Assembly (NCBI GenBank): GCA_037137775.1
Contig: JBAXJQ010000003.1
Coordinates: 920 to 64,919, forward strand
DNA: 64,000 nt
Source: Candidatus Falkowbacteria bacterium
GTDB lineage: Bacteria; Patescibacteriota; Patescibacteriia; Patescibacteriales; GWE2-39-37
Reading direction: 5' to 3'
Shown one piece after another: positions 9,920-23,127 of this stretch. The notes below the pieces were generated by a model, which saw only the letters and a program-made list of their open reading frames with translations, was not told the origin of the DNA and did no database searches. Both the position numbers and the translations under genes were made by a program. Within the stretch, counting starts at the first letter, position 1, and the number at the start of each line of letters is the position of its first letter.

Positions 9920-9958
9920 TTGACAGTATCATTAAATATGATATGTTGTATATACAAC
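9920..9958 (+). promoter_or_regulatory. putative promoter plus palindromic operator of the Rrf2/Fe-S operon
   Basis: TTGACA at 9920-9925. A perfect 14-bp palindrome, GTTGTATATACAAC, at 9945-9958 overlaps the -10/TSS region, 17 nt upstream of the Rrf2 ATG. Confidence 0.45.
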
Positions 9959-9974
9959 CAATTTAGTTGGATAT

Positions 9975-10379
9975 ATGCGATTCTCAACCAAAACCACGTA
10001 CGGCCTTAGGGCATTATTTCATGTCGCTAAAGCTTGGCCTGATGGTCATGTGGCCATTAGCCATATCGCCCAGGCAGAAAAGTTGTCCGCAGCGTATTTG
10101 GAGCGGTTGTTTGCTCGTTTAAAAAAAGCCAAGATCATCACCGCCACTCAAGGAGTCAATGGCGGCTATCAACTGTCTGTCGCACCAAATCAACTTACAA
10201 TCTATCAGGTGATTGCCGCACTTGAAGGCCAGTCAGATTTCTTTTATTGTTGGCTAAAAGATGATAAGATTTATTGTAAGGGCGGCTGTGCCTGCGGAGT
10301 TAATGATGCTATGCGGAAAATCGATTCCGCCATCAACAATTCGCTTTCAGCTATTACCCTGGATAAATTAATTGCTTAG
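9975..10379 (+). CDS. Rrf2-family transcriptional regulator (IscR/NsrR-like) with a Cys cluster
   Basis: N-terminal MRFSTKTTYGLRAL wHTH signature. C-terminal cysteines CWLKDDKIYCKGGCAC. Confidence 0.9.
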   Translation: MRFSTKTTYGLRALFHVAKAWPDGHVAISHIAQAEKLSAAYLERLFARLKKAKIITATQGVNGGYQLSVAPNQLTIYQVIAALEGQSDFFYCWLKDDKIYCKGGCACGVNDAMRKIDSAINNSLSAITLDKLIA

Positions 10380-10386
10380 CTTTTTT

Positions 10387-11142
10387 ATGTTTAAAATTTC
10401 AAGGAGTTTGTTGGTGGTAGTATTTTTATTGTTTTTATTTCATCCCGTTGTTCGCGCCGAGGCATTGCCAGATACGGACCAAGACGGAATTTCGGATCAG
10501 ACTGAGATTGAGCGATATTATACTGATCCAAACTTATTTGATTCTGATGGAGATGGGTATGGGGATGGCGAGGAATTGCGTAAAGGCTTTTCACCATACA
10601 ACGCCAAAGCTGGAGTGAAGCTTGAAAAAAGTGACGCTGACAAAGATGGACTTAATGATCGAATGGAGATTAACTTTCACACAAATCCCATTGTGGCTGA
10701 CACTGATGGAGATGGATATACGGACGGGGAAGAGGTAAAAAATGGCTATGATCCTCTCCATGCTGATGTGAAGTTGGAAAAATTAATTAAAGTGAATTTA
10801 GCCAAACAAGAAGTTGAATATTTTTTAGGCGAGGTGAGATTGGGCAAATTTCGAATTTCCAGCGGTAAACCTTCAATGCCTACGCCAAAAGGCACATTTA
10901 CGATTGATGGCAAGACACCACGAGCCTGGTCTAGGCCGTATGGGTTATGGATGCCGTATTGGATGTCATTAAATCATGGCAAGTTCGGTTTTCATGAATT
11001 GCCAGAGTGGCCAAGCGGCAAAAAAGAGGGTGCTAGCCATATTGGCAAGCCCGTATCGCATGGATGTATTCGTTTGGGTGTAGGCGATGCTAAAACGCTT
11101 TACGATTGGGCACCAGTCGGCACTAAGGTAATTATTTATTAA
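10387..11142 (+). CDS. secreted L,D-transpeptidase (YkuD domain) with N-terminal thrombospondin type-3-like Ca-binding repeats
   Basis: Signal peptide. DTDQDGISD, DSDGDGYGDGEE, DADKDGLND and DTDGDGYTDGEE repeats. Catalytic SHGCIRL motif. ATG at 10387 is preferred over the TTG at 10372. Confidence 0.85.
   Translation: MFKISRSLLVVVFLLFLFHPVVRAEALPDTDQDGISDQTEIERYYTDPNLFDSDGDGYGDGEELRKGFSPYNAKAGVKLEKSDADKDGLNDRMEINFHTNPIVADTDGDGYTDGEEVKNGYDPLHADVKLEKLIKVNLAKQEVEYFLGEVRLGKFRISSGKPSMPTPKGTFTIDGKTPRAWSRPYGLWMPYWMSLNHGKFGFHELPEWPSGKKEGASHIGKPVSHGCIRLGVGDAKTLYDWAPVGTKVIIY
10468..10770 (+). repeat. two tandem coding repeats of about 45 aa (DxDxDG Ca-binding type) inside the L,D-transpeptidase gene
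   Basis: Each unit ends in ...GF/YxPxxAxVKLEK. Seen in the translation. Confidence 0.6.
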
Positions 11143-11148
11143 ACATAT

Positions 11149-11535
11149 ATGTTATATACGGAAAAAGTAATTGAGCATTTTCAGCATCCTCATAATCAAG
11201 GAGTGATTGACGATGCAGACGCTATTGGTCAGGAAGGGAACTTGACCTGTGGTGATGTTATGAAAATATATCTCAAAGTGGGTGAAAATGAAAAAGGGGA
11301 AAAAACAGTAGGTGATATTAAGTTTGAGACGTTTGGTTGTGCGGCTGCAATTGCTGTTTCATCAGCACTGACCGATTATGTTAAAGGCAAGACATTAAAC
11401 GAAGCTGCGGCAGTAACCAAGGATGAAATTGTTCAAGATCTTGGTGGGTTACCTGCGCCGAAAGTGCATTGTTCCATGCTTGGCGTGGATGCACTGCGTC
11501 AAGCGATTACTCAATATCAAACAACTCATAAATAA
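11149..11535 (+). CDS. iscU: Fe-S cluster scaffold, IscU/NifU N-terminal type
   Basis: Three conserved Cys contexts (LTCGD, FGCAAAIA, HCSMLG). 128 aa. Confidence 0.9.
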   Translation: MLYTEKVIEHFQHPHNQGVIDDADAIGQEGNLTCGDVMKIYLKVGENEKGEKTVGDIKFETFGCAAAIAVSSALTDYVKGKTLNEAAAVTKDEIVQDLGGLPAPKVHCSMLGVDALRQAITQYQTTHK

Positions 11536-11546
11536 TAATCATAATT

Positions 11547-11771
11547 ATGAAAGATAAAATTGAAGAAAATTTAGCCAAAATTAGACCGGCCTTGCAAATG
11601 GACGGTGGTGATGTCGAATATGTAGATTTTGATGAAAAAACAGGTGTGCTACGGGTTCGCTTGTTGGGTCATTGCGCGCATTGCCCTATGTCACAAGTAA
11701 CATTGAAGCAGGGCATTGAGGCCACAATTAAGCAGGCTATCCCCGAAGTAACTGCCGTTGAGCAGGTCTAA
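11547..11771 (+). CDS. NifU C-terminal (Nfu-type) Fe-S carrier domain protein
   Basis: 74 aa. DGGDVEYV and CAHCPMS (CxxC) motifs. Confidence 0.8.
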   Translation: MKDKIEENLAKIRPALQMDGGDVEYVDFDEKTGVLRVRLLGHCAHCPMSQVTLKQGIEATIKQAIPEVTAVEQV

Positions 11772-11789
11772 AAAAGTAAACAAAGCCAA

Positions 11790-13019
11790 ATGACATATTT
11801 TGATCATAGCGCCACTACGCCAGTGGACAAGGATATTTTAAAAACAATGTTGCCCTATTTTTCTGGCAATTTTGGTAATGCCTCATCTATTCACCAATAT
11901 GGCCAAAAAGCTATGGAGGGGGTAGAGTATGGTCGTCAAATCGCAGCGAAATACTTTAATTGCCAGCCTGATGAAATTGTTTTTACCGGTGGTGCAACGG
12001 AAGCTAATAACTTGGCAATTCGTGGCTTAATCGCTGCCATAAAGCGATCCAGCCAGCATATTACGCCCCATGTCATAACTTCGGTAATAGAGCACGACTC
12101 TGTTTTAGAGCCATTTGCACAGCTTGAACGTGAGGGCACAGCCGTAACTCACATTCCTGTTGACTCAAAAGGGGTAATTATTTTTGAAAAATTAGAAGCC
12201 GCCATAAAAGATAATACCGTCTTAATTTCGATTATGTATGTTAATAGCGAGGTGGGTAGTATTCAACCAATTAGACAAATTGGTAAGTTGGTTCGGAAAA
12301 TTAATGAACAGCGGCAGAAGAAATGGGAACAAACCATTCCAGCTGATCGAACAGCTAAGCCATATCGCTTATATTTTCATACTGATGCAACGCAAGCGAT
12401 TAATTTTTTACCTAGCGATGTAAAAGAATTCAATTTGGACATGCTCTCTATGTCCGCTCACAAGATTTATGGTCCCAAGGGTGTAGGTTTGCTCGTGATA
12501 AAACAGGGCACACCATTAACTGCATTGCAGCTTGGCGGTCATCATGAAAATAATCGTCGTAGTGGCACTTTGAATGTGCCTGGTATTGTTGGACTAGGCA
12601 AGGCGTTAGAAAATTTAACCAATGAAAACATAGCCAAGCAAAATAAAAAAATTGCTGTCTTGCGTAATCGTTTAGTTAAGGGGGTGAAAAAACTAGTACC
12701 AAACGTAACACTAAATACGGACATTAAAAATGCAACGCCTGGGCATGCTCATTTTTCTTTTCATGGTATAGAAGGGGAGTCGATTTTAATTTCCTTGGAT
12801 TTAGCCGGAGTTGCAGTTTCTACTGGGTCTGCTTGTGCTTCAAATAGTCTTAAGGCCTCCCATGTGTTAATTGCGATGGGTATTCCAGTGGAAATCGCTC
12901 ACAGCTCTATCCGGTTTACGTTAGGCAAACACAACAAAAAAAGTGATGTTGATCACCTTTTAACCGTTTTACCTGATATTATTTCAAGACTACGCAATAT
13001 GGCGCCCAAGCTAGATTAA
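11790..13019 (+). CDS. cysteine desulfurase (NifS/IscS family, PLP-dependent)
   Basis: SAHKIYGPKGVG (PLP lysine) and active-site STGSACAS loop. 409 aa. Confidence 0.92.
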   Translation: MTYFDHSATTPVDKDILKTMLPYFSGNFGNASSIHQYGQKAMEGVEYGRQIAAKYFNCQPDEIVFTGGATEANNLAIRGLIAAIKRSSQHITPHVITSVIEHDSVLEPFAQLEREGTAVTHIPVDSKGVIIFEKLEAAIKDNTVLISIMYVNSEVGSIQPIRQIGKLVRKINEQRQKKWEQTIPADRTAKPYRLYFHTDATQAINFLPSDVKEFNLDMLSMSAHKIYGPKGVGLLVIKQGTPLTALQLGGHHENNRRSGTLNVPGIVGLGKALENLTNENIAKQNKKIAVLRNRLVKGVKKLVPNVTLNTDIKNATPGHAHFSFHGIEGESILISLDLAGVAVSTGSACASNSLKASHVLIAMGIPVEIAHSSIRFTLGKHNKKSDVDHLLTVLPDIISRLRNMAPKLD

Positions 13020-13318
13020 TGAAAAGGGGATTCAAAAGTTTCTGGTAAATCGCTGAGTGCATTTTTCTCAGCGATTTTTTGTTCAACCTGATTAAAGGCA
13101 ACAGTATTAATTTTATCGCCAGATGACATAATTTGCATGGTCATTAGTTCTGATGATAAGTCGATTGACCGCCAAGCATTTTCATAGATAAAACTACCGG
13201 TAAAAAATAATGCGGTACCTGAAATAATGGTAATTAAAAAATAGATTACCAATAATGATTTTTTATACGTTAATTTTGTTAGAAATTTTTTCATCATATT
13301 ATTTCCAAAAGGTTTCAA
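13016..13318 (-). CDS. small single-pass membrane protein, last gene of the pilus operon
   Basis: N-terminal TM helix. Overlaps the pilO-like gene by 20 nt. Its stop codon overlaps the convergent cysteine desulfurase stop codon. Confidence 0.4.
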   Translation of the reverse strand: MKPFGNNMMKKFLTKLTYKKSLLVIYFLITIISGTALFFTGSFIYENAWRSIDLSSELMTMQIMSSGDKINTVAFNQVEQKIAEKNALSDLPETFESPFH

Positions 13319-13880
13319 TATCTAAATTCATCGTTACATTATTAGAATCAAAATTACTGTTTACGTCTGATGGCGTAACAACTCCGCCCGAACGAATAAA
13401 ATCAAGTTTGGTAACATTGATTTGGTAATTCATTTTTTCTAAATGTCGTAAAAACTTTATTTGTTGGCGATAAACACCTTCGGAAGTAATTGAAAAAAGT
13501 ACTTTATCACTGTTAGCCTTCGAGTCTGATTTAAGTGAAATTACTGCTTTTAAACTGCTTGAGGCCGCCGAATTTTCCAGAGAAGTAATGAATTGCAATT
13601 GCTCGTTTTTGGGAATAAACATTTGGTCAATAGTAGCGATTTGTGGTTCGATTTTTTTTATGGTTTCAATTGTATTCCGTGATTTCATGGCGGATTGGTA
13701 TTTTTTTTCCATCGCAGTATATTGGCCTAAAATTTCATTTTTTATTTTAGAAATATCAGCCATGCAAGGAGTGATAATCGCATAAGACCCGCCACAGACT
13801 AATATAAAAATCACCAAATTAGTGATAATCACTCTTTTTTTGTTATCCAATTTTTTTATTGCCAGGAACTCTAATTTCAT
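13299..13880 (-). CDS. PilO-like pilus assembly protein (bitopic)
   Basis: One N-terminal TM helix followed by a coiled-coil segment. Position after the pilM and pilN-like genes. No strong motif. Confidence 0.5.
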   Translation of the reverse strand: MKLEFLAIKKLDNKKRVIITNLVIFILVCGGSYAIITPCMADISKIKNEILGQYTAMEKKYQSAMKSRNTIETIKKIEPQIATIDQMFIPKNEQLQFITSLENSAASSSLKAVISLKSDSKANSDKVLFSITSEGVYRQQIKFLRHLEKMNYQINVTKLDFIRSGGVVTPSDVNSNFDSNNVTMNLDIETFWK

Positions 13881-14413
13881 TTTATTGTGGATAAATTATA
13901 TTTGGCAGGAAAAGAAAAGGGAACATTTTCTTTTTGCAGAATGTCGTTTAATGAAAGCTCGAACGGTTCAATGAGTTTGGCAATTTCTAGGCCATTTTTA
14001 AAATCAATTAAATCGGTCCGTGTTTTAGCTACTCCCTTAAGCATGACAATCCCTGTGGCAGCGTCTATGCTGATTGAGTCCAGGTTGATATTGGTGCTAA
14101 TAAAAGTTGATAATGCAAGTAAATATTTAGTCCAAACTGTACGTCCGCGCAAAGCCGTTTCGGCTACACTGATTTTTTGATTATAAGTTTTAACTTTGGA
14201 GTTAAAATTTTCGCCAGAATGTTTGACTAGATTAGTTTGTTCAACCGCTGTTTCGTAGGTAAGTTGTAACACAAGCTTGGCAAGAACAAATAAACTAGAA
14301 ATAACACAAGCAATTATAATTAAAATAAAATTTAATCGGCGCAACAGCATAAATAGGCGTTGCATGGTAACGTCTTTCTTTTTTTCTTGTGAAATAAGGT
14401 TAATAGTCAACAT
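13877..14413 (-). CDS. pilN: PilN-like (fimbrial assembly) protein
   Basis: Conserved N-terminal INLISQEKK motif that typically binds PilM, one TM helix, and translational coupling to the adjacent genes. Confidence 0.6.
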   Translation of the reverse strand: MLTINLISQEKKKDVTMQRLFMLLRRLNFILIIIACVISSLFVLAKLVLQLTYETAVEQTNLVKHSGENFNSKVKTYNQKISVAETALRGRTVWTKYLLALSTFISTNINLDSISIDAATGIVMLKGVAKTRTDLIDFKNGLEIAKLIEPFELSLNDILQKENVPFSFPAKYNLSTIK

Positions 14414-14415
14414 GA

Positions 14416-15570
14416 TTACATTTCGTCTAAAATTATATTGCGCAAAGCAAGGCCAATGGCCGTGGTAAAAATTAATTCGGAATGTTTAGTGGCGATTAAT
14501 TCTTGATTGGAGTCTGAATTTTTTAGGCCCAACTTTAATTGGTACGTTTCTGTTAGTGCTTTATTGATTTTTTCAGGACGATCAGTAATTTGAGCGAGAG
14601 GAGTTGCAATAGACGTTTTAATACCCAATTTTTCTTCCAAGATTTTATCTAAATTTTCAATATTCGATCCTCCTCCACAAAGATAGATTTGTTGGATGCT
14701 ACCTGTCTTAGGGAAATGTGATTGATAAAATGCGATCGTATCTTTAATCTTTTGGATTAAGGCAATAATCGCTTCTGCTAATATTTCCTTGACGATGCCA
14801 TGTGCTTTGGTTTCGTCTAGACCACAAATAATTTTGGCTTTTTCAGCTTGTTCGGGTGATATATTTAAGTTTTCAGCAATTTTATGTGTTACCTCGTCAC
14901 TAGAGAAGGGTAAGCTTACAGAAAAGAGTACGGTTTGCCCAGCAAAAAAGATTAAGCTGGCTCGTTTTGCCCCAATATCAAGAATGGCATATCTAGTATT
15001 TTGCTGGTTAGTCTTATCTCCTTTTTTTGGTTCGGGAATTAAGGCTCTGCAAATGGCTGTTGACTCTAACTCGAGTGCGGATAGTGATAACCCGCAGGAG
15101 TCAAATAAGTTAGTGTAGGCATCAACAATGGTTCTAGGTGCAGCACCAAGAAGTATGGATTGTTTGGTGTTTTGAGTTGATATTATCTGCCAATCGTAAT
15201 AAATTTCTTCAATAGGCAAAGGAATGTGTTTTTCCATTTCAATTTTTACCATTTCGGTCAAATCATTCGGAGTCTGCTCTAATTCAATTAATTTTGTGAA
15301 GGTTTTATTTTCAGGTAAACAAGCCACCACTTCTCGAGAAGTTATGGTGCCATATTTGGGAGTAGCAATTAATTGCTTGATGGCCTTAACAAGCTCATCT
15401 ATTTTTACAATGTCAGCCTCATCAACAATTCCTGGTGCCAAATCAATTTTATTTATGGCTTGTGTTTTAATCTTGTCACCAACTTTGGTTAATTGAAATA
15501 ACTTAATCGAAGTATCGGAAATATCAATGCCGACTGGATAGGATGTTTGTGAAAATCTAAACATAATCAA
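14416..15570 (-). CDS. pilM: type IV pilus assembly protein PilM (actin-like ATPase fold)
   Basis: 384 aa. GIDISDTSIK and ILDIGAKRASL phosphate-loop-like motifs, LCGGGS motif. Confidence 0.85.
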   Translation of the reverse strand: MIMFRFSQTSYPVGIDISDTSIKLFQLTKVGDKIKTQAINKIDLAPGIVDEADIVKIDELVKAIKQLIATPKYGTITSREVVACLPENKTFTKLIELEQTPNDLTEMVKIEMEKHIPLPIEEIYYDWQIISTQNTKQSILLGAAPRTIVDAYTNLFDSCGLSLSALELESTAICRALIPEPKKGDKTNQQNTRYAILDIGAKRASLIFFAGQTVLFSVSLPFSSDEVTHKIAENLNISPEQAEKAKIICGLDETKAHGIVKEILAEAIIALIQKIKDTIAFYQSHFPKTGSIQQIYLCGGGSNIENLDKILEEKLGIKTSIATPLAQITDRPEKINKALTETYQLKLGLKNSDSNQELIATKHSELIFTTAIGLALRNIILDEM

Positions 15571-15615
15571 ATTTATTTTGATTGTATTATACCATTTTTT
15601 GTAAAATGGTGAAAG

Positions 15616-17028
15616 TTATTTCTCTTCCCAGGAGATGAATGCATATTGACCGGTAGTCGGGAAGGAGGGAGGTGGTGCATAAGTGAGTAATGGGTCGTAT
15701 ATAGAATTGGTTATTTTGTAACCATCAATAGTGCTAGCGCCTGAAACCCAGCTCCAGGTCCACGTTTGGTTAGTTAATACACTGCCATACACTTCAATTG
15801 AATTTTTTACACTAGCAGTGTTGTAGCGGTTATGAAAAACTCTTCCGTTTTGTGCTAAAAGTACCCCATCTATAATTAAATTATTCGGTGCACCGCGAAC
15901 CACTTTAATATTTTTTTGGGCAATTAAACCAAGTACATTAGTTCCATCTCTGGCAAGATATTGTAAATTATTTACAATATGAATCGTGCGGCGCTTGTTA
16001 ACATTGTCGGGCAAAGTTGCAGCTACTAATGTTACGCGACCTTTAACGGTACCTTCAACCCAAACATCACCATCGTTCACAAAGATTACGCCGTTTGCAG
16101 GAATGGTGTAATCAGTCGCGATTCCTTCGGTAGTAATGGTTTCCGGGGTATTTACCCAGCTAGTCCAGGTATCGTCAAATTGATTTATATTGCCTACCGC
16201 GCTAACAAGCTTAGCGTCAAAATGACCATTTGCTTTGAAAATAATATGATAGCCTTTGTTTGAACCGGTTGTATTTAATGTTACGCCTGCAATTGACTGT
16301 AAATTGTTTAAATCTGCAGTAATGCTATTAAAATCAACAGTAACTACTGGGTAGCTCCAAAGTGGGCTATTTAGACCAACACCCCAAACTCCAGGACAGG
16401 TGCAATTCGGATTGGACCAGGAACACGGAGCATGGCACGTCGCTTGTGTATTGCACCCATGGCCGCTTTGGCAGACATAGTTTTGTCGAGATGATGCCAC
16501 CAGTGAATCATTGGTACCATCCATTCTAACGCCACCGTTTGAGTGCATTTCACCAACCACACGTTCATTATTACCAAACCAAGCATCGGCATTGGTTAAA
16601 AATGAGAAATGAGCCAACGAGGGAATACCGTATCGAACCTCAACAGCACGGGTTGAGTTTGGATATTCATCCACCCAACCAGTGGATTTTATTTTAACAA
16701 TGGTTGAACCAGTTGGTGGGGGGGTAATTTCTAGCTTAAAGTGGCCTGCCATTGAATTACTGGGATCGGTGTAGTCATGGGTATATGGCCCTGCTATGCC
16801 TGTGCCGTCTTGGAAATCATCTTGATCATGAGCCAGGTGCCAACGATAATAGTTGACTCCTGCCTCTGCGATATGCAATGCTTGCTGTTTGGCAGTTTGT
16901 TGTTTGTATAACCTCATCTCAGAGAAGCTAATACCGGTTAAAGCGGTGGCCATAGAAATAAATAGCATAGTGATAACAAGAACAACTACGAGAATGGTGC
17001 CACTTTGTTTATTGGTTATAATTAGCAT
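15616..17028 (-). CDS. PilX-N-domain pilus-associated protein with a large Cys-rich extracellular region
   Basis: N-terminus KQSGTILVVVLVITMLFISMATAL...SEMRLYKQQ...AGVNYYRW resembles the PilX N-terminal domain. Cys cluster CQSGHGCNTQATCHAPCSWSNPNCTCPG. Confidence 0.6.
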   Translation of the reverse strand: MLIITNKQSGTILVVVLVITMLFISMATALTGISFSEMRLYKQQTAKQQALHIAEAGVNYYRWHLAHDQDDFQDGTGIAGPYTHDYTDPSNSMAGHFKLEITPPPTGSTIVKIKSTGWVDEYPNSTRAVEVRYGIPSLAHFSFLTNADAWFGNNERVVGEMHSNGGVRMDGTNDSLVASSRQNYVCQSGHGCNTQATCHAPCSWSNPNCTCPGVWGVGLNSPLWSYPVVTVDFNSITADLNNLQSIAGVTLNTTGSNKGYHIIFKANGHFDAKLVSAVGNINQFDDTWTSWVNTPETITTEGIATDYTIPANGVIFVNDGDVWVEGTVKGRVTLVAATLPDNVNKRRTIHIVNNLQYLARDGTNVLGLIAQKNIKVVRGAPNNLIIDGVLLAQNGRVFHNRYNTASVKNSIEVYGSVLTNQTWTWSWVSGASTIDGYKITNSIYDPLLTYAPPPSFPTTGQYAFISWEEK

Positions 17029-17031
17029 AAT

Positions 17032-17634
17032 CTAGAGATTATCTTTAAGGTTTCGCAATTGGACGTTAGTATTGACTGAATAATAAATTGGTGCCCGTCC
17101 TGGTGAGAGATCGACTTTTATTGAAACATGAATCATTCTGATTTGTTGGGTGCTACTCGCTGGATTGGCAATTAAATTGCCAGCGGTGTCATAGTACGTA
17201 AATACTGGTGCTCCATTGTTTCGTACGTAATTAATAATCGTACTAGTAGATTCAGCTCCAGTATAAAGCAGTGGCGAACCGGCTGGCTTGATGCTGCCTC
17301 GATAAATAGTTGTACCAGAAAGATAATAATGTAATTTTTCCGTGAGGCTATCGTTGTCGGTATCAGCATAAAAAGTGAGCGAACTAGTACCAACGATTGC
17401 TAAAGGATAATTGCCATTAGCGCTTGGGGCTGTTTCTCGAACCTCCTTAACTAAGGGGTTTAGAGCTTTTCTGGCATTTTGCAAGGCTTCATTTTGTTCG
17501 GTTACAAAAATATTGGTTTTTAAACTGCTAAAAATATAATCGCTGGCAATAATTGACACCGTTAAAAATATTGCCATTACAACCGTAATTTCCAATAAGC
17601 TCATGCCCAAGGTGTATATATTAAATCTTGCCAT
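17032..17634 (-). CDS. type IV pilin-like (minor pilin/pseudopilin) protein
   Basis: Prepilin-type N-terminus MARFNIYTLG/MSLLEITVVMAIFL, with Glu at position +5 after the cleavage-site Gly. Confidence 0.7.
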   Translation of the reverse strand: MARFNIYTLGMSLLEITVVMAIFLTVSIIASDYIFSSLKTNIFVTEQNEALQNARKALNPLVKEVRETAPSANGNYPLAIVGTSSLTFYADTDNDSLTEKLHYYLSGTTIYRGSIKPAGSPLLYTGAESTSTIINYVRNNGAPVFTYYDTAGNLIANPASSTQQIRMIHVSIKVDLSPGRAPIYYSVNTNVQLRNLKDNL

Positions 17635-19685
17635 TAGTTAAAGTTTAGTATAACAATTTGATTGGTGTTGGGATTTAGGTTGATTGGTAGTGTTGGGTTG
17701 GTCATAACAAGGTTATGTAAGACATAGGTCGTACCAATCGTTAAATCATAACTATCCCATTCAATGCCAGTGATAGTGACAAACCCGTTTATATCGGTGG
17801 TGTAGTTTTTTTTAAATTTCAAAATTACCGGATTTTCGCCAATACGCTTGGCACCACTAAGCGTAATAGGAACATCCATTAAATTCGTAGTAGTGCTATA
17901 AGGAGATAAATCTGAACCGTAGATATCAAAATTGCCACTTCGATCATCTTGCCAGACAACATATGGTTTATTTTTATCTTCATTATAGATTATTGAGGGG
18001 CCATATTGAGCCGAGGCACCAGTATTGATATTAGCTCTAATGTCATTAAGCCATAATTTAGTGCCACTCATATCTATTTTTTGAGCGTAAATATCCTGGT
18101 TGCCATTTCGTTCATCGGTCCAAGCGATATATACCGTACCGGAAGCGACAGCTACTGAGGGTGAATATTGGTTGGTGGTGCCACCGTCAGAATTAATTAA
18201 TACATCATTGGTCCATAATTTAGTGCCATTTGAGTCAAAAATCTGTCCGTATATATTTTGATTACCACCGCGATCATCTTGCCAAAATACTAAAAAATTA
18301 TTGGCATCGTTAGTAGCTACAACTGGATTAATTTGGTTTGTTCCATCATTAATAGTGGTGTCACTAACTCGTACTTCCGGAGACCATTGTTCGGTGTGGT
18401 CGTTAGTGTTAATTTTTTGAAGATAGATATCTAAATCGTCGTTGCGGTCGTCCTGCCATACATACCCAAGCAAGCTACCGTCTGGCAGTAAAGCAATTCG
18501 TGGTTTTGACTGGTCTTTGTTATCCGCTGCAGTAAAGATTTTTTTGGTGCCGCTCCATGCATCACTGCCGTCGGCGGTGGATCGCTTGACCAAATAACAG
18601 TCCTGATTGCCACTGGAGTTGTCATTCCAGGCGGCGAATAGGTGATGATTATTATCTAATATGATGTCTGGGTATATTTGGTTATTGGCCGTACCAATGG
18701 CAATGTCGCTACCCCATTCAGCGTGAGAGTTTTCATCATATTTTTGCATATAAATTTTACCATTTGAACCGGAGCGAAAGTCTTGCCAGACAATATACAT
18801 GTTGCCGTGCTCATCCGCGGTAATTCTGGGCATTAATTGATTATCAGTGCCGCTGTCGGTATTAATTTTCCAATTATTGGGTAAATTTTGTGCTATTGCT
18901 TGGATGGTTAAGTTGCTTAAAAGGTCAATACTAAGGGTTAAACTGGTTTTGTCATCAATAATTACGGTTTGATTTGGTAAAGTAGGATTAGGATTGGCGA
19001 CAGTTCTGGGTGAAGTTGAGCTCTGACTATAGCCTGCCTTAGAAACAAGCACGTTATAGCCCTCAACGCTTGGCGTAGCGCCATAAAGCAGTAAGACGCC
19101 CTGAGCATTAGTTTGCGAAGTGAAATTTATGGTTGGCACGGTTGTGCTGTTGGTTACCGTTACATCTGCACCAACAACGGGTTGTCCGCTAGCATTAATG
19201 ACTCTAATTTCTAAAGTGCCCGCATTAGCAATTGTTTCGATCCCCCTGGGTGCTACCGTGGTAGCAAAAAATATGTGCCTTTCGCCAAAAGAGCCAGAAT
19301 AGCTTATTCTAATTCGAATAGATTTATAATCAGTTGGCAAGGTGTCATCGGGCATTCCGCCAAAGGTGCCGTCAAAAGGGTCGTCAACATAAAGCACAAC
19401 CGTGTTCACTTGAAAAATACCATCGGTATTAGAAATTGTTTCATTGCCTGGGATATTACCATGAACAATACCAGTTAAGGTGCCTACCTGATCATAGGGC
19501 AAATTACGAATATATTCTAATTTTTGATCAGCTAATAAGCCTGCTCCCACCCGTAATTTGTTTTCTAGACTAATTTTAATCGCTTGATTAAAAAGGCCAT
19601 AGACTGAAACAAGCACCAAGGCTAAAATCGCCAAAGTAATAATGAGTTCAACTAAGGTGTAACCACCCTGCTTTTTAAAAGTCAT
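17634..19685 (-). CDS. giant pilin-like protein: prepilin N-terminus, Ig-like (CarboxypepD_reg-like) domains and a six-repeat beta-propeller-like region
   Basis: MTFKKQGG/YTLVELIITLAILALV cleavage/methylation motif. Six repeats carry the W-x-D-x-R-x-G-N-x-D-I-Y motif. Confidence 0.75.
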   Translation of the reverse strand: MTFKKQGGYTLVELIITLAILALVLVSVYGLFNQAIKISLENKLRVGAGLLADQKLEYIRNLPYDQVGTLTGIVHGNIPGNETISNTDGIFQVNTVVLYVDDPFDGTFGGMPDDTLPTDYKSIRIRISYSGSFGERHIFFATTVAPRGIETIANAGTLEIRVINASGQPVVGADVTVTNSTTVPTINFTSQTNAQGVLLLYGATPSVEGYNVLVSKAGYSQSSTSPRTVANPNPTLPNQTVIIDDKTSLTLSIDLLSNLTIQAIAQNLPNNWKINTDSGTDNQLMPRITADEHGNMYIVWQDFRSGSNGKIYMQKYDENSHAEWGSDIAIGTANNQIYPDIILDNNHHLFAAWNDNSSGNQDCYLVKRSTADGSDAWSGTKKIFTAADNKDQSKPRIALLPDGSLLGYVWQDDRNDDLDIYLQKINTNDHTEQWSPEVRVSDTTINDGTNQINPVVATNDANNFLVFWQDDRGGNQNIYGQIFDSNGTKLWTNDVLINSDGGTTNQYSPSVAVASGTVYIAWTDERNGNQDIYAQKIDMSGTKLWLNDIRANINTGASAQYGPSIIYNEDKNKPYVVWQDDRSGNFDIYGSDLSPYSTTTNLMDVPITLSGAKRIGENPVILKFKKNYTTDINGFVTITGIEWDSYDLTIGTTYVLHNLVMTNPTLPINLNPNTNQIVILNFN
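17910..18833 (-). repeat. six tandem coding repeats of about 50 aa (WQDDRxGNxDIY type, beta-propeller-like)
   Basis: IVWQDFRSGSNGKIY, AAWNDNSSGNQDCY, YVWQDDRNDDLDIY, VFWQDDRGGNQNIY, IAWTDERNGNQDIY and VVWQDDRSGNFDIY in the translation. Confidence 0.65.
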
Positions 19686-19686
19686 A

Positions 19687-20814
19687 TTAAATCGCTGAAG
19701 TCATGGTGTACATTGGCATTAAAATGGCGACAGCCATGGCGCCAACGCCACAGCCTAAAACTAAAATTAGAACAGGCTCAATTATTGACGGTAGATTAGT
19801 CATAACTTCATCTATCTCGTCTTCATAAAATTCTGCAAGTTCGACTAAAATATTATCCAGTTCACCAGTTTGCTCACCAATGGCAATCATCTGAATTACA
19901 ATTGGCGGAAATAGTTTGGGATAGGTGGCAATAACCTCATTGATTGGCGTGCCTTTTTTGATTTTTTCAGCAATTTCTTCTACGGCGTTACGGTAATGAA
20001 TGTTGCCCAATACGGTCGCTGTTATTTGAAAGGTTTTTATAATCATAATATCAGTTTTAAGCAACGAACTGATTGTGCGGGAAAATTTAGCAAGATTAAC
20101 TTTTTTAATTATTTTACCAAAAATAGGTAGTTTAATGAGAAATAGGTCAAAATAATATTTGCCCGACTTAGTTTGTATGGTTTTTATAAAAGTAAAAATT
20201 GTAACCACGCTAATAATCAAGCAGAGCAGGGTATTCTTGGTAAGAAAATCACTTACGGCGATTAAAATTTTGGTGGGTAATGGCAGGGAAGCTCCTGCTT
20301 CTTTAAGCATGCCAGTTAGTTGTGGCACGATAATGAGCATCATAAAAATTCCAATGCCAACCATGGCAAACATAATAACTGCAGGATAGGTCATAGCACC
20401 TTTTATTTTGGAAACTAACTCGTGATGCTTTTTCATTTGGAGATACAGTTGCGCCAAAACGCTTTCAAGCTTACCGGAAATTTCACCCGCTTCGATCATA
20501 TTGATAAAAAGTTCACCAAATATTTTTTGGTTTAACTTTAAACTGTCCGTCAGCGTTTTACCTTTTTCTACTGCTTGAGCGGTTTCGGTAATGATGAGAG
20601 CAAATTTTTTATTTTCCGCCTGCTTGGCCAGTGTTTGTAGTGCGGTTAATATCGAAACGCCAGCCTTAAGCATAATGCCAAGATTTTGTACAAAAAATAA
20701 TTTTTCATTCGATGGTACCCGAGAAAATTTTAACAAAAAATCATCAACCGTCATTGATTTTTTTATCGTTAGTTCGAGTTGTTGCGGTTGTACAGAGTTG
20801 GGATTAAAAACCAT
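19687..20814 (-). CDS. pilC: type IV pilus platform protein PilC (GspF family)
   Basis: 375 aa. Duplicated T2SSF domains and 3 TM segments. Translationally coupled to pilB. Confidence 0.9.
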   Translation of the reverse strand: MVFNPNSVQPQQLELTIKKSMTVDDFLLKFSRVPSNEKLFFVQNLGIMLKAGVSILTALQTLAKQAENKKFALIITETAQAVEKGKTLTDSLKLNQKIFGELFINMIEAGEISGKLESVLAQLYLQMKKHHELVSKIKGAMTYPAVIMFAMVGIGIFMMLIIVPQLTGMLKEAGASLPLPTKILIAVSDFLTKNTLLCLIISVVTIFTFIKTIQTKSGKYYFDLFLIKLPIFGKIIKKVNLAKFSRTISSLLKTDIMIIKTFQITATVLGNIHYRNAVEEIAEKIKKGTPINEVIATYPKLFPPIVIQMIAIGEQTGELDNILVELAEFYEDEIDEVMTNLPSIIEPVLILVLGCGVGAMAVAILMPMYTMTSAI

Positions 20815-20815
20815 A

Positions 20816-22597
20816 TCATTCTTTAGTTACACGAACAATTTCTTCGATCGTGGTAATACCATTCTTGGCTTTAATATAGCCATCTTCTGCCATGGTGAGC
20901 ATTTTTTGGGCGATTGCTTCTTTCATAATATCGCTTTCAGTAGCTTTTTTTAAGATCAGCTCAGAAATTTCTGGAGTAATTTCTAGCACTTCGTAAATAC
21001 CCACACGTCCTTTATAGCCAGAGTCATTGCATTGTTTACATCCCTTGCCATGATAAAATAGTAATGATTCCAGATTTTTACTGCCAACAATTACTTTTTC
21101 TCTGATCATGGTTTTGATGATGGTATCGATATCAAATTGCTGACGTAAATCTTCAATCGTTTGTTTGTCTAAATTATAACTTTGAATGCAATTTGGACAG
21201 ATTTTTCTGACTAAGCGCTGAGCAATAATTAAATTTGTAGTCGTTGCCACTAAAAAGGAGGGTACACCCATATCGGAAAGACGGGGTAAGGTATTAATGG
21301 CATCGTTGGTGTGTAAGGTAGAGAGTACTAAATGTCCGGTCATAGCAGCATTAATGGCGATTTCGGCGGTTTCTTGGTCTCGGATTTCACCCACCATAAT
21401 AATATCGGGATCTTGACGTAAAAATGCACGCAAGCCTGAGGCAAAGGTAAAACCGATTTTAGCATTAACTTGAGACTGATTTACATGAGGCATGCGATAT
21501 TCAATTGGGTCTTCTATGGTTGAAATATTAACCTCAGGTGTGTTTAGGATATTAAGTACGGTATAGAGCGTCGTTGATTTACCAGAACCTGTCGGGCCGG
21601 TAACTAAAACCATGCCGTGTGGCTTTGAAATATTATTTTTAAGGGTTTCAAGCGCCGATGGCTGCATGCCTAATTGCTCTAAGGTGAGAATTTGAGCTTT
21701 TTCACGTAACAGACGCATTACGATTTTTTCTCCATCAAACGTAGGAATTATTGAAACGCGGAAAGAAACTTTATAATCTTTGTTGTGGATTTTAAAGCGA
21801 CCGTCTTGTGGTAGGCGATGTTCATCCACTTTAAGATTGGATAAGATTTTAATACGTGCTGCAATGCCTGATTGAATATTTTTTGGCAAAGTCATAACGT
21901 TGCGTAAAATGCCGTCAATACGATAGCGCACGTTAACTTCTTTTTCTTCCGGTTCGATATGAATATCGCTTGCGTCTTCAAAAATAGCATATTCAAGCAG
22001 TGTATCCACTACGCGAACGACTGGTAGATTAGTTGCAAGTTTTTTTAAATCTTCATTGCTTTGACCCTCTTTCGTGTCGTTTTCAAGAATATCGATTTCA
22101 GCTTTTAAGCTTTTGTGGTATTGATTAATGGCGAATTGAATACTTTCCGGTGTAGTAAAATAAAGCTTTGGCTCTAATTCGGTTTTTTTCTTGATGAAAT
22201 CGAGAATTTCAATATCATTCGGATCAAGCGTAGCCAGCATGATTTGAGTTGGTGAGCTATCAAAGGCAATAATTTGATGCGTGCTAGCAATCGCTTCTGG
22301 TAGATAAAACAAAACATCTTTACGAATCGTTTGCTTTTTTAAATTAATAAACGGCAATTTGAAAAAATCCGCAGCTTTTTCATAGAGTGCGGCTTGGTTG
22401 ATAATTTTTTTTTCAGCCAGATAATCTTCAATGTTTTTGCCGCCTTCTTTGGCCTCGTTGGCTAAACGGTCAAAATTTTCAGGGGGTAAAATATTGGCAA
22501 AGTTAAGCACTTCGCGAATCTGTTCTGATTTGAGCATGTTAATGGTTGCAATTTCAAGTAATGCTCTGATTATACCATTTATTGCAAATTTGACCAA
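20816..22597 (-). CDS. pilB: type IV pilus assembly ATPase PilB (GspE family)
   Basis: Walker A GPTGSGKST, Asp/His boxes and a tetracysteine motif (CPNC...CKQC). The true start is possibly the Met at 22537. It ends in the only TGA stop I saw in the window. Confidence 0.92.
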   Translation of the reverse strand: MVKFAINGIIRALLEIATINMLKSEQIREVLNFANILPPENFDRLANEAKEGGKNIEDYLAEKKIINQAALYEKAADFFKLPFINLKKQTIRKDVLFYLPEAIASTHQIIAFDSSPTQIMLATLDPNDIEILDFIKKKTELEPKLYFTTPESIQFAINQYHKSLKAEIDILENDTKEGQSNEDLKKLATNLPVVRVVDTLLEYAIFEDASDIHIEPEEKEVNVRYRIDGILRNVMTLPKNIQSGIAARIKILSNLKVDEHRLPQDGRFKIHNKDYKVSFRVSIIPTFDGEKIVMRLLREKAQILTLEQLGMQPSALETLKNNISKPHGMVLVTGPTGSGKSTTLYTVLNILNTPEVNISTIEDPIEYRMPHVNQSQVNAKIGFTFASGLRAFLRQDPDIIMVGEIRDQETAEIAINAAMTGHLVLSTLHTNDAINTLPRLSDMGVPSFLVATTTNLIIAQRLVRKICPNCIQSYNLDKQTIEDLRQQFDIDTIIKTMIREKVIVGSKNLESLLFYHGKGCKQCNDSGYKGRVGIYEVLEITPEISELILKKATESDIMKEAIAQKMLTMAEDGYIKAKNGITTIEEIVRVTKE

Positions 22598-22707: not shown

Positions 22708-23127
22708 ATGGCTAAAATAGAAAAATTTAATGTAATTTGGCATCAGTTTCATTCAATAAGGGTCACTATTGTGGATGCCATAGTTTGGATTTGGTCGATG
22801 AATTTTGTTCGATGGATTGTAGGTGGTACTTTGTTTATAAATGTAATAATTTGGCTAATAGCTTTTTTGGAATTTCGTCGCATACCCTATAATCAAGTTG
22901 TGCTTCATTATAATGTTGATTATGGCGTAGACTATTTAGGTGAAACAAATAAAATTTTTTTTGTGCCATTGATTGGCATAATTATCATCTTGGTTAATTT
23001 AGTAGTTATAGGTATCTGTCAGCGTCAAGAAAAATTTATTCATTATGTAGCTCTTTATGGCGCTTTGGTTGCGAATATTGTATTGCTAATTGCTCAGGGG
23101 TTGTTATATCGATTTAATCTAAGATAA
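22708..23127 (+). CDS. hypothetical 4-TM membrane protein, first gene of the mur/fts cluster
   Basis: Hydrophobic helices. 2-nt gap to mraY. No family recognised. Confidence 0.45.
   Translation: MAKIEKFNVIWHQFHSIRVTIVDAIVWIWSMNFVRWIVGGTLFINVIIWLIAFLEFRRIPYNQVVLHYNVDYGVDYLGETNKIFFVPLIGIIIILVNLVVIGICQRQEKFIHYVALYGALVANIVLLIAQGLLYRFNLR

What the first reader, a model, noticed from the sequence alone, without database searches (positions are those of the whole stretch)
13016..22597. Compact nine-gene type IV pilus operon with no secretin, major pilin, prepilin peptidase or retraction ATPase in the window
The operon runs pilB, pilC, a 683-aa pilin-like gene, a 200-aa pilin-like gene, a 470-aa PilX-N-domain gene, pilM, a pilN-like gene, a pilO-like gene and a 100-aa TM protein gene. 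These are tightly packed, with several overlapping stop and start codons. No PilQ or PilP is present, which is consistent with a monoderm envelope. The structural genes in the operon are all large accessory pilins rather than a short PilA. In ultrasmall episymbiotic bacteria, type IV pili are the proposed machinery for host attachment and DNA uptake. This operon, with its unusual tip-type proteins, is therefore a candidate host-interaction system. The operon's last gene ends in a stop codon that overlaps the stop codon of the convergent cysteine desulfurase gene, and there is no intervening terminator.
Basis: partly seen in the sequence, partly recalled or inferred. Interest (0 to 1): 0.55.

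Follow-up and report, generated by a model that had tools for sequence, protein, structure and literature searches.

The report
Patescibacterial type IV pilus operon
This is a real nine-gene type IV pilus assembly operon from an ultrasmall Falkowbacteria (CPR/Patescibacteria) genome; the gene set is conserved across hundreds of related species, and its three large "pilins" look like the pilus-tip complex, one of them folding like ComZ, the DNA-binding tip pilin of Thermus.

Summary
Nine tightly packed minus-strand genes (13016-22537/22597) encode PilB, PilC, three pilin-like proteins, PilM, PilN, PilO and a ~92-aa membrane protein. The 64-kb window contains no secretin, PilT, prepilin peptidase or short pilin. 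The source is a Candidatus Falkowbacteria MAG.

The operon is not unusual for this group. The same nine genes, in the same order and between the same neighbours (mraY cluster, NifS/NifU), recur in relatives whose large pilin is only 38-51% identical. The pilin triad occurs in at least 558 GTDB species.

The three pilins are a minor-pilin set of the GspI/J/K (PilV/W/X) type:
- **683-aa protein:** a modular pilin carrying a six-bladed, sialidase-fold beta-propeller. This middle module is swapped between lineages.
- **200-aa protein:** a canonical minor pilin.
- **470-aa protein:** keeps Gly-1 but lacks Glu+5, as GspK does. Its high-confidence model matches only Thermus ComZ (Foldseek E 7e-10), a beta-solenoid tip pilin that binds DNA. 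It is better conserved than PilM/N/O.

The major pilin must be encoded elsewhere; Woesebacteria relatives have a short PilA next to the triad.

Verdict: a known kind of system. The added lead is a conserved ComZ-like cap, which points to DNA capture as well as host adhesion.

The parts
20816..22537 (-). pilB: extension ATPase (573 aa from ATG 22537; the ORF runs up to TTG 22597)
   Evidence: T2SSE E 8e-134 plus MshEN domain. TIGR02538 PilB 583 bits versus ComGA 264 and PilT family 190. Walker A GPTGSGKST and a CxxC...CxxC motif are visible in the translation. Public gene call is 573 aa.
22569..22596 (-). Promoter-like site upstream of pilB (TGGTCA-16-TATAAT with TG)
   Evidence: Best minus-strand consensus match in the region, 10 of 12. 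The number of sites in the region is not above the shuffled controls, so this is only a hint.
19687..20814 (-). pilC: inner-membrane platform protein
   Evidence: Two T2SSF stretches, E 1.5e-52. PilC and GspF NCBIfam models E 1e-84.
17634..19685 (-). 683-aa modular minor pilin (GspI/PilV-like position). Pilin domain 1-~145, Ig-like CarboxypepD_reg domain ~156-265, six-bladed beta-propeller ~283-592, C-terminal beta-sandwich ~606-682.
   Evidence: G|YTLVE prepilin site. N_methyl, CarboxypepD_reg, BNR_4 and TIGR04275 repeats. AF2 pLDDT 89.5. Foldseek best matches are sialidase, pseudaminidase and GH145 six-bladed propellers, E 1e-10. Six regular W-x-D-x-R...D-I-Y-x-Q blades. Profile hits the CylK propeller at E 1.5e-11.
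17032..17634 (-). 200-aa minor pilin (GspJ/PilW-like position)
   Evidence: G|MSLLE site. 35 of 39 orthologues match N_methyl. Orthologues hit minor-pilin models (ComGE 29, ComGF 19, GspJ 17, GspI 15 of 39) far more often than major-pilin models (GspG 4, PilA 2, ComGC 2).
15616..17028 (-). 470-aa ComZ-like cap pilin (GspK/PilX position). N-terminal helix 9-67, four-strand pilin sheet 82-134, beta-solenoid ~143-443, last strand 463-469.
   Evidence: PilX_N E 2.5e-5. GspK N-terminus E 4.3e-5. Gly-1 (G10) conserved in at least 90% of the family, with no Glu+5. AF2 pLDDT 93.3. The only significant PDB matches are ComZ 6QVI, E 6.9e-10 and 6.9e-9; ice-binding-protein solenoids come next.
15586..15613 (-). 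Promoter-like site in the only sizeable intergenic gap, before pilM
   Evidence: TTCACC-16-TATAAT with TG, 10 of 12. Consensus match only.
14416..15570 (-). pilM: actin-like cytoplasmic alignment protein
   Evidence: PilM_2 E 1.4e-44. TIGR01175 E 1.5e-54, above its cutoff.
13877..14413 (-). pilN
   Evidence: No hit for the window copy itself. 29 of 33 orthologues match PF05137 PilN. The family starts with a conserved M-I-x-L-N-L-L motif, which resembles the PilM-binding INLLP peptide of PilN (own knowledge).
13299..13880 (-). pilO
   Evidence: No hit for the window copy. 17 of 33 orthologues match PF04350 PilO and 4 match T2SSM_b. The L002 orthologue carries PilO in the precomputed Pfam table.
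13016..13297 (-). Ninth gene: ~92-aa bitopic membrane protein of unknown family, conserved after pilO
   Evidence: An orthologous small gene follows pilO in 31 distinct loci. Shared features are a TM helix, an FLYxNFYQTI motif and a C-terminal (N/D)PF with invariant Phe. No Pfam or PDB relative.
13016..13019 (.). TTAA in which the stop codons of the ninth gene and the convergent cysteine desulfurase gene overlap
   Evidence: Read directly from the sequence. In relatives the two genes lie 66-83 nt apart, so the overlap is particular to this genome.

Best explanation
The locus encodes the assembly machine and the tip (priming) complex of a monoderm-type type IVa-like pilus of a Falkowbacteria cell.

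Proposed mechanism:
1. PilB, on the PilC platform and held by PilM-PilN-PilO plus the small ninth membrane protein, polymerises a major pilin that is encoded elsewhere in the genome.
2. Assembly starts from a three-protein minor-pilin complex that ends up at the pilus tip.
3. The 470-aa protein is the cap. It keeps Gly-1, lacks Glu+5 and carries a ComZ-like beta-solenoid.
4. The 200-aa (J-like) and 683-aa (I-like) pilins sit beneath it.
5. The 683-aa pilin exposes a lineage-specific six-bladed propeller. This most likely acts as a lectin-like adhesin for a host-cell surface glycan.
6. The strongly conserved ComZ-like cap binds a ligand common to all these lineages, most likely extracellular DNA, as ComZ does in Thermus.

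What is shown: gene identities, conserved synteny, domain architectures and fold matches.
What is inferred: the tip location, the order of subunits, the ligands, and the existence of pilA, pilD and pilT elsewhere in the genome.
For: Machine genes:
- Pfam and NCBIfam hits for PilB, PilC and PilM.
- Orthologue hits for PilN and PilO.

Conservation:
- The same nine genes, in the same order and with the same neighbours, occur in L002, L003 and L005, where the large pilin is 38-51% identical.
- The triad is found in all 80 loci kept, out of at least 558 species.

Tip-complex reading:
- Two canonical prepilins plus one Gly-1/no-Glu+5 protein.
- GspK and PilX_N hits for the 470-aa protein.
- The 200-aa family matches minor-pilin models.

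ComZ likeness:
- Foldseek E 6.9e-10, probability 1.0, covering nearly the full length of both proteins. The next hits are ice-binding-protein solenoids. These are the same neighbours reported for ComZ's solenoid (PMC6561018).
- The secondary-structure order (4 strands, solenoid, last strand) fits ComZ's insertion point between the penultimate and last strands.

Conserved cap versus variable adhesin:
- Over 32 complete loci, the 470-aa protein shows median 42.8% identity over 99% of its length. PilM shows 31.4%, and the 683-aa pilin 36.7% over only 40% of its length.
- The middle module of the first pilin is a propeller, LVIVD repeats, DUF2341 or absent, depending on lineage.
- One locus carries two tandem triads with different first pilins.

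Published analogue:
- In Saccharibacteria TM7x, PilV/W/X minor pilins include a propeller-bearing PilX2 needed for host binding (PMC12206443).
- Patescibacteria are naturally competent through ComEC (PMC10633639).

Major pilin elsewhere: Woesebacteria loci with the same triad carry a 152-166-aa GFTLIELLVVI pilin next to it.
Against: - No sequence-level similarity to ComZ was found (profile against PDB).
- The Foldseek TM-scores are low (0.32-0.33) and the rmsd is high, so the domain arrangement may differ from ComZ.
- The family's invariant residues (E55, Y60, Y61, W63, H162, N164, D170) are not the lysines implicated in ComZ DNA binding. They would suit a sugar-binding, metal-binding or catalytic site equally well.
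- In Southlakia, comEC is dispensable while T4P genes are essential. T4P essentiality there is therefore not due to competence.
- No competence genes lie next to the triad in the loci read.
- The major pilin, PilD and PilT of this genome were not seen, and whether the pilus retracts is unknown.
- The loci compared were selected by similarity to the 470-aa protein, which inflates its apparent conservation somewhat.
- The propeller shows only periodic, structural conservation. Its glycan-binding role rests on fold analogy alone.
Confidence: 0.6

Rival explanations
1. The pilus is purely a host-attachment and motility organelle. The ComZ-like solenoid is only a structural cap or another adhesin, for example binding or cutting polysaccharide, and has no role in DNA uptake.
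For: - In Saccharibacteria, T4P drive twitching motility and host binding. T4P-2 pilin mutants transform normally, and comEC is dispensable while T4P are essential.
- Beta-solenoids are typically carbohydrate-active or ice-binding folds.
- The invariant His/Asn/Asp/Tyr/Trp cluster of the family resembles a sugar or metal site more than a DNA-binding patch.
Against: - The only significant structural relative is a demonstrated DNA-binding competence pilin.
- A tip protein kept at about 40% identity or more across classes that presumably have different hosts argues for a host-independent ligand.
- Competence genes are enriched in Patescibacteria, and T4P work with Com proteins.
Confidence: 0.3
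2. The operon is self-sufficient. The 200-aa pilin is the major filament subunit, so no separate pilA is needed.
For: It has a canonical G|MSLLE site and a size within the range of major pilins. No short pilin lies within 10 kb in any Falkowbacteria-type locus.
Against: - Its orthologues match minor-pilin or pseudopilin models far more often than major-pilin models.
- It always sits between the I-like and K-like genes.
- Woesebacteria loci with the same 200-aa orthologue also have a separate, highly conserved 152-166-aa PilA-type pilin.
Confidence: 0.07
3. The locus encodes a type II secretion-like pseudopilus or a Com-type competence pseudopilus, rather than an extended type IV pilus.
For: GspE, GspF, GspK and ComG-type models score on several proteins. 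The minor pilins are pseudopilin-like.
Against: - PilB scores best on the PilB model (583 bits, against 264 for ComGA) and has the long N-terminal MshEN region.
- PilM-PilN-PilO are present. From my own knowledge, Com systems lack them and T2SS use GspL/M/C instead.
- No secretin or GspC/D/L is present.
- Cryo-ET shows real T4P filaments on Saccharibacteria.
Confidence: 0.03

Closest known systems
Type IV pili of Saccharibacteria (Nanosynbacter lyticus TM7x T4P-1/T4P-2; Southlakia epibionticum), PMC12206443 and PMC10633639
   Same: - Patescibacterial, monoderm-type T4aP-like machine: PilB, PilC, PilM, PilN, PilO and no secretin.
- Minor pilins of PilV/W/X type with pseudopilin-like N-termini.
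- The large tip pilin lacks a predicted PilD site.
- One minor pilin carries a beta-propeller implicated in host binding.
   Different: - Here the triad is inserted between pilC and pilM, and pilA, pilD and pilT are absent from the window.
- In TM7x the propeller sits on PilX2 (seven blades, RCC1 repeats). Here it sits on the I/V-like pilin (six blades, sialidase fold).
- That paper reports low conservation of pilins across Patescibacteria, whereas the 470-aa family here is conserved over its full length.
- Whether TM7x PilX1 belongs to the 470-aa family was not tested.
ComZ-PilA2 competence tip pilins of Thermus thermophilus (PDB 6QVI/6QVF; PMC6561018)
   Same: - The 470-aa model's only significant PDB match.
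- GspK-like pilin domain with a large, ice-binding-protein-like beta-solenoid that appears inserted before the last strand.
- No canonical PilD/Glu5 signature.
- Encoded directly after other minor pilin genes.
   Different: - No detectable sequence similarity; 13% identity in the structural alignment; low TM-score.
- Thermus is diderm with a PilQ secretin, and comZ is followed by the major pilin gene pilA4.
- ComZ is dispensable for piliation. Here the triad is the only minor-pilin set in the operon.
- DNA binding by the 470-aa protein is untested.
Core minor (pseudo)pilin tip complexes: T2SS GspI-GspJ-GspK and T4aP PilV-PilW-PilX (with FimU/GspH)
   Same: - Three adjacent pilin-like genes.
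- The last one is large, has Gly-1 but no Glu+5, and hits GspK and PilX_N models.
- The first two have canonical prepilin sites and hit GspI, GspJ, PilV and ComG minor-pilin models weakly.
   Different: - The HMM matches are weak and mostly confined to the N-terminal helix.
- No GspH/FimU-like fourth member and no PilY1.
- The K-type insert is a beta-solenoid rather than GspK's alpha-helical domain.
- The I-type member carries ~540 extra residues.
Modular type IV pilins of Streptococcus sanguinis (PilB vWA module, PilC lectin module; PMC8179133)
   Same: A pilin module with a functional binding module grafted on C-terminally; proposed tip location and adhesion role; monoderm host (abstract listed).
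   Different: Different grafted folds (Ig-like domain plus six-bladed propeller plus beta-sandwich). Different machinery context: from my own knowledge, S. sanguinis lacks PilMNO.

Membership tests
Type IVa pilus machinery (monoderm form) | PilB-type extension ATPase | tested here: met
   T2SSE E 8e-134. TIGR02538 583 bits is the best-scoring model, although below its equivalog cutoff of 675.65.
Type IVa pilus machinery (monoderm form) | PilC platform protein with two T2SSF domains | tested here: met
   PF00482 with 2 stretches, E 1.5e-52.
Type IVa pilus machinery (monoderm form) | PilM-PilN-PilO alignment subcomplex | tested here: met
   PilM is above its TIGR01175 cutoff. PilN and PilO are met through orthologues only, 29 of 33 and 17 of 33; the window copies themselves score nothing.
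Type IVa pilus machinery (monoderm form) | Major pilin (short PilA-type prepilin) | tested here: not met
   None in the 64-kb window, nor within 10 kb in Falkowbacteria-type loci. Present beside the triad in Woesebacteria loci. The rest of this genome could not be searched.
Type IVa pilus machinery (monoderm form) | Prepilin peptidase PilD | tested here: not met
   No Peptidase_A24-like ORF in the window. Whole genome not testable. Two proteins carry canonical G|xxxxE sites, which implies a peptidase exists.
Type IVa pilus machinery (monoderm form) | Retraction ATPase PilT | tested here: not met
   No second T2SSE-family ORF in the window. No PilT-sized T2SSE paralogue within 10 kb in any of 86 loci. 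Elsewhere in the genome not testable. PilT is reported as widely conserved in Patescibacteria.
Diderm T4aP / T2SS | Secretin (PilQ/GspD) and PilP/GspC | tested here: not met
   Absent from the window and from all related loci read. Whole genome not testable.
Com-type competence pseudopilus (ComGA-GG) | ComGA-type short ATPase, ComGB, ComGC major pilin and no PilMNO | tested here: not met
   ComGA model scores 264 bits, below its cutoff of 300 and far below the PilB score. PilM, PilN and PilO are present.
GspI/J/K - PilV/W/X core minor pilin complex | K-type cap: Gly-1 retained, Glu+5 absent, large inserted domain | tested here: met
   G10 conserved in at least 90% of the family, with no Glu at +5. 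GspK and PilX_N N-terminal hits. ~300-residue beta insert.
GspI/J/K - PilV/W/X core minor pilin complex | I- and J-type partners with canonical prepilin sites encoded adjacently | tested here: met
   G|YTLVE and G|MSLLE. The order is invariant in 80 loci. Which gene is I-type and which is J-type rests on weak HMM hits only.
GspI/J/K - PilV/W/X core minor pilin complex | Formation of a heterotrimer through the N-terminal helices at the filament tip | not testable with these tools
   No multimer prediction or experiment was available.
ComZ-like tip pilins | Pilin (GspK-like) domain with a triangular beta-solenoid inserted before the last strand | tested here: inconclusive
   [not shown]
ComZ-like tip pilins | Sequence homology to ComZ | tested here: not met
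   The family profile against all PDB sequences finds no ComZ hit at E up to 10.
ComZ-like tip pilins | Binds dsDNA and a neighbouring minor pilin | not testable with these tools
   Requires biochemistry.
Sialidase / GH33-like six-bladed propeller enzymes | Catalytic Arg triad, Tyr/Glu nucleophile pair and Asp-boxes | tested here: inconclusive
   The fold matches. Conserved residues, however, are the periodic blade motif W-x-D-x-R...D-I-Y-x-Q, not an aperiodic active-site set. No structural superposition of active sites was possible.

The most novel reading that the evidence does not exclude
The 470-aa protein represents a pan-Patescibacterial tip cap outside Saccharibacteria. It would be an ancient ComZ-type receptor, or even an enzyme given its invariant His/Asn/Asp/Tyr/Trp cluster and six-cysteine loop, that captures extracellular DNA at the pilus tip. 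The type IV pilus would then be the front end of nucleic-acid scavenging in organisms that cannot make nucleotides. Lineage-specific modules on the neighbouring pilin would set host specificity.
Probability: 0.3. Interest if true: 0.7.

Novelty: new member of a known kind. Interest (0 to 1): 0.42.

Why it matters
- Type IV pili are among the few surface machines shared by nearly all Patescibacteria. In Saccharibacteria they are essential and are implicated in motility and host binding. Their tip proteins are named as priority targets for understanding host attachment (PMC11665869).
- This locus shows that large parts of the radiation share one fixed tip set: a variable modular pilin, a 200-aa pilin and a strongly conserved 470-aa cap. 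Lineages named in the record titles include Falkow-, Paceibacter, Kuenen-, Magasanik- and Woesebacteria.
- The cap's only structural relative is a DNA-receptor pilin. This gives a concrete hypothesis that can be tested with recombinant protein.
- No paper in the searchable library links ComZ or solenoid pilins with Patescibacteria.
- The operon as such, however, is an ordinary member of a known system type.

Tried and rejected
1. **Major pilin of Falkowbacteria.** I queried the protein database with the Woesebacteria short pilin. There were 4106 hits, but the top 120 all appear to be close relatives of the query (at least 62% identical); the few that carry names are Woesebacteria or Beckwithbacteria, and none is named Falkowbacteria. 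The location remains unresolved.
2. **Whole-genome search for pilT, pilD, comEC or a secretin.** This was not possible.
3. **Sequence-level link between the 470-aa family and ComZ.** None was found.
5. **Family assignment for the ninth, ~92-aa protein.** Pfam, NCBIfam and PDB profiles give nothing credible. The SecDF_plasm hit at E 3.6e-4 covers the TM segment only.
6. **Competence genes next to stand-alone triads in Magasanikbacteria-type loci.** RecA, FtsK and RuvB occur nearby in some loci, but nothing is consistent.
7. **Supplementary tables of the TM7x paper.** Searched for per-lineage pilT and pilD presence in Falkowbacteria; only a genome list was found.
8. **Horizontal-transfer island.** Rejected. 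GC content is 0.36-0.41, like the rest of the window, and the genomic position is conserved across relatives.
9. **Promoter and terminator scans.** These gave only consensus-level hints, with site counts not above shuffled controls.

Full report
**1. Observation**

The region 13016-22597 holds nine co-oriented minus-strand ORFs. Profile searches identify most of them:
- PilB: T2SSE E 8e-134, MshEN domain, and TIGR02538 as the best model.
- PilC: two T2SSF stretches.
- A 683-aa protein with a prepilin N-terminus (N_methyl), a CarboxypepD_reg domain and beta-propeller repeats.
- A 470-aa protein with PilX_N and GspK N-terminal similarity.
- PilM: above the TIGR01175 cutoff.

The 200-aa protein and the PilN-, PilO- and ~100-aa proteins give no significant hit themselves. 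Junctions are 1-4 nt apart or overlapping, except for a 45-nt gap before pilM. The last gene and the convergent cysteine desulfurase gene share TTAA at 13016-13019, and there is no terminator-like site there.

A six-frame scan for G|xxxxE prepilin N-termini finds only the 683-aa and 200-aa proteins in the whole window. Reading every other ORF and running Pfam on the unclear ones reveals no secretin, no second T2SSE ATPase and no Peptidase_A24.

Minor corrections:
- pilB most likely starts at ATG 22537 (573 aa). That is the public gene call, and the best promoter-like site (22596-22569, extended -10) lies inside the longer TTG ORF.
- The last gene is 92-93 aa.

**2. Source and conservation**

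The 683-aa protein is found, identical, on NCBI assembly GCA_964484025.1 and is named as Candidatus Falkowbacteria. Three diverged relatives, whose large pilin is 38-51% identical and which include contigs of 772 kb and 922 kb, have the following layout:
- the same nine genes in the same order;
- on one side, a divergent small TM gene followed by mraY-ftsW-murG;
- on the other side, NifS-NifU-Rrf2.

In one of these relatives the precomputed Pfam table recognises PilN and PilO. Scanning orthologue sets confirms this: 29 of 33 match PilN and 17 of 33 match PilO. 35 of 39 orthologues of the 200-aa protein carry the N_methyl motif.

A scan of one genome per GTDB species with the 470-aa family profile found at least 558 species that encode a relative. 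The 80 best loci carry record titles from several candidate phyla, including Falkow-, Kuenen-, Magasanik-, Woese-, Paceibacter, Kerfeld- and Gribaldobacteria.

In every one of these loci the order is the same: [variable first pilin, 176-1322 aa] then [~200 aa] then [~455-515 aa].
- The full nine-gene layout is typical of Falkowbacteria- and Paceibacter-type loci.
- Magasanikbacteria loci have the triad alone.
- Woesebacteria loci arrange the machine genes around it and add a short (152-166 aa) GFTLIELLVVI pilin.
- One locus has two tandem triads.

So the operon is real, under selection, and the norm for this part of the radiation rather than a curiosity of this genome.

**3. The three pilins**

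The 683-aa and 200-aa proteins have canonical prepilin sites (G|YTLVE, G|MSLLE). The 470-aa family keeps Gly-1 in at least 90% of members but has no Glu+5. From my own knowledge, and as discussed for ComZ in PMC6561018, that is the signature of cap subunits such as GspK.

Orthologues of the 200-aa protein hit minor-pilin or pseudopilin models (ComGE 29, ComGF 19, GspJ 17, GspI 15 of 39). They rarely hit major-pilin models.

*683-aa protein.* AlphaFold2 with a 67-sequence alignment gives a confident model (pLDDT 89.5) with these parts:
- a long N-terminal helix and pilin sheet;
- an Ig-like domain;
- a six-bladed propeller;
- a C-terminal beta-sandwich.

Foldseek matches the propeller to sialidase, pseudaminidase and GH145 six-bladed propellers at E about 1e-10. 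The six blades repeat a W-x-D-x-R...D-I-Y-x-Q motif, and the conserved residues of the family are this periodic motif. I therefore see no sign of a sialidase active site and read the propeller as a binding module. That reading is an inference.

Across lineages the pilin domain plus CarboxypepD_reg part is constant, while the middle module varies. It is this propeller, twelve LVIVD repeats, DUF2341, or nothing.

*470-aa protein.* With 70 sequences the model has pLDDT 93.3. It shows helix 9-67, four strands at 82-134, about 300 residues of short regular strands, and a final strand at 463-469.

Its only significant PDB matches are the two chains of ComZ from Thermus thermophilus (6QVI; E 6.9e-10 and 6.9e-9; probability 1.0; ~550 aligned columns). 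Ice-binding-protein solenoids follow at E 0.04-1.

The ComZ paper describes exactly this combination (PMC6561018):
- a GspK-like pilin domain;
- a triangular solenoid resembling FfIBP, inserted between the penultimate and last strands;
- no predicted PilD site;
- binding to the neighbouring pilin PilA2 and to dsDNA;
- a proposed role as a tip DNA receptor.

**4. Conservation pattern**

Over 32 loci that carry all the components, median identity to the window proteins is:

| Protein | Median identity | Note |
|---|---|---|
| PilB | 57% | |
| PilC | 48.5% | |
| 470-aa cap | 42.8% | over 99% of its length |
| 683-aa pilin | 36.7% | over only 40% of its length |
| 200-aa pilin | 34.4% | |
| PilM | 31.4% | |
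| PilN | 27.9% | found in 20 of the 32 loci |
| PilO | 26.0% | found in 16 of the 32 loci |

The loci were chosen by similarity to the 470-aa protein, so its rank is somewhat inflated. An exhaustive HMM search finds 2971 50%-identity cluster representatives at E up to 1e-3, and 404 at E up to 1e-30.

A surface tip protein that is better conserved than the cytoplasmic PilM suggests a ligand shared by lineages that presumably have different hosts. The module-swapping first pilin looks like the host-specific part.

**5. Ninth gene**

A small gene follows pilO in 31 distinct loci. It encodes a basic N-terminus, one TM helix, an FLYxNFYQTI motif, a helical stretch and a C-terminal (N/D)PF with an invariant Phe. 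It has no Pfam, NCBIfam or PDB relative.

I treat it as a lineage-specific partner of the PilMNO subcomplex. Its function is unknown.

**6. Mechanism proposed**

Shown:
- a complete extension machine (PilB, PilC, PilM, PilN, PilO);
- a conserved three-member minor-pilin set with one GspK/ComZ-type member and one modular member.

Inferred, from the established model of GspIJK and PilVWX priming complexes:
- The triad nucleates assembly on PilC.
- It is pushed outwards by a major pilin encoded elsewhere and ends up at the tip.
- The solenoid cap is on top, and the propeller is displayed laterally.

Inferred functions:
- The cap captures DNA, by analogy with ComZ. This fits the enrichment of competence genes in Patescibacteria and the natural competence shown so far for Saccharibacteria.
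- The propeller binds host-surface glycans, by analogy with TM7x PilX2 and the lectin-like minor pilins.

Points against a DNA-only reading:
- In Southlakia, T4P are essential but comEC is not.
- TM7x T4P-2 pilin mutants transform normally.
- The invariant residues of the 470-aa family (E55, Y60, Y61, W63, H162, N164, D170, plus a six-cysteine loop at 186-211) look as much like a sugar-binding, metal-binding or catalytic site as like a DNA-binding patch.

**7. Comparison with known systems**

*Saccharibacterial T4P.* This is the closest published system. It has the same kind of machine and PilV/W/X minor pilins, including a propeller-bearing one. However, its main locus also carries pilT, pilA and pilD, in a different order. 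Its authors found pilins poorly conserved across Patescibacteria, unlike the 470-aa family here.

*Other relatives.*
- The cap's closest structure is Thermus ComZ.
- The overall logic is that of GspI/J/K.
- The 683-aa protein fits the concept of modular pilins described for Streptococcus sanguinis.

*Membership.*
- The locus qualifies as a monoderm-type T4aP-like system on PilB, PilC, PilM, PilN and PilO.
- The major pilin, PilD and PilT criteria are not met within the window and could not be tested genome-wide.
- It is not a Com system: the ATPase scores best as PilB, and PilMNO are present.
- It is not a diderm T2SS or T4aP, because no secretin was seen.

**8. Novelty and verdict**

Type IV pili in Patescibacteria, their monoderm gene set and their large tip pilins are all published. 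The operon is therefore a new member of a known kind.

What appears unreported in the searchable literature is a widely conserved ComZ-like solenoid cap and the fixed triad with a module-swapping first pilin. No paper combines ComZ, or solenoid plus pilin, with Patescibacteria terms.

This is a useful and testable lead rather than a surprise, hence moderate interest.

Noticed in passing
window 31006-34266 (+): A 516-aa membrane protein with no Pfam hit is followed by a 566-aa ATPase. The ATPase has TrwB_AAD_bind, DUF87 and TraG-D_C domains and a C-terminal treble-clef zinc finger. Together they look like a type IV secretion coupling-protein-like pair. A distinctive T4SS has been described in Patescibacteria (bioRxiv 10.1101/2025.01.22.634366, listed).
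   Followed up: no
window 15616-17028 (-), residues 51-68, 159-171 and 186-211: The 470-aa family has an invariant polar/aromatic cluster: E55, Y60, Y61 and W63 in the helix, and H162, N164 and D170 in the motif HSNGG[IV]RMDG. It also has a conserved six-cysteine loop, CxxxxxCxxxxxCxxxCxxxxxxCxC. This looks like a ligand-binding or catalytic site but could not be placed on the model.
   Followed up: partly
window 13016-13297 (-), and the gene after pilO in 30 related loci: A small bitopic protein family with an FLYxNFYQTI motif and a C-terminal (N/D)PF with invariant Phe always follows pilO. It has no known family.
   Followed up: partly
L051 1256-~12000 (JACPXH010000003.1, Candidatus Parcubacteria): Two complete pilin triads lie in tandem (1322/249/463 aa and 625/216/455 aa). 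The first pilin of copy one carries 12 LVIVD repeats. This suggests alternative tip complexes for one machine.
   Followed up: partly
L062 (CP066693.1, Woesebacteria chromosome) 5341-14988: A different arrangement of the same parts: a 159-aa PilA-type pilin, PilO and a PilM-PilN fusion (474 aa) on one strand; the triad on the other; then an unknown 226-aa gene, PilC and PilB. A sortase gene lies nearby. The short pilin family is very strongly conserved: the top 120 hits are at least 62% identical.
   Followed up: partly
window 22708-23127 (+), and the orthologous gene in many loci: A 113-170-aa multi-TM protein with no credible Pfam hit is always divergent from pilB and directly upstream of mraY. 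The position of the pilus operon between the mraY/ftsW/murG cluster and the Rrf2-NifU-NifS cluster is conserved across distant relatives.
   Followed up: partly
window 46098-47867 (-): An ABC exporter appears split into a 243-aa transmembrane half and a 312-aa ATPase half, separated by about 100 nt. It may be a frameshifted pseudogene or a split gene.
   Followed up: no
window 61060-62067 (+): An MreB homologue, judged by eye from the translation. It lies between a DUF4012 protein gene (Pfam) and a gene that looks like a glycosyltransferase by eye.
   Followed up: no
window 41550-43610 (+): A 686-aa protein combining a GHL15 putative glycosyl hydrolase domain with FG-GAP repeats. It is followed by a 607-aa DUF11-containing protein. 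Both are possible further surface or host-interaction proteins.
   Followed up: no
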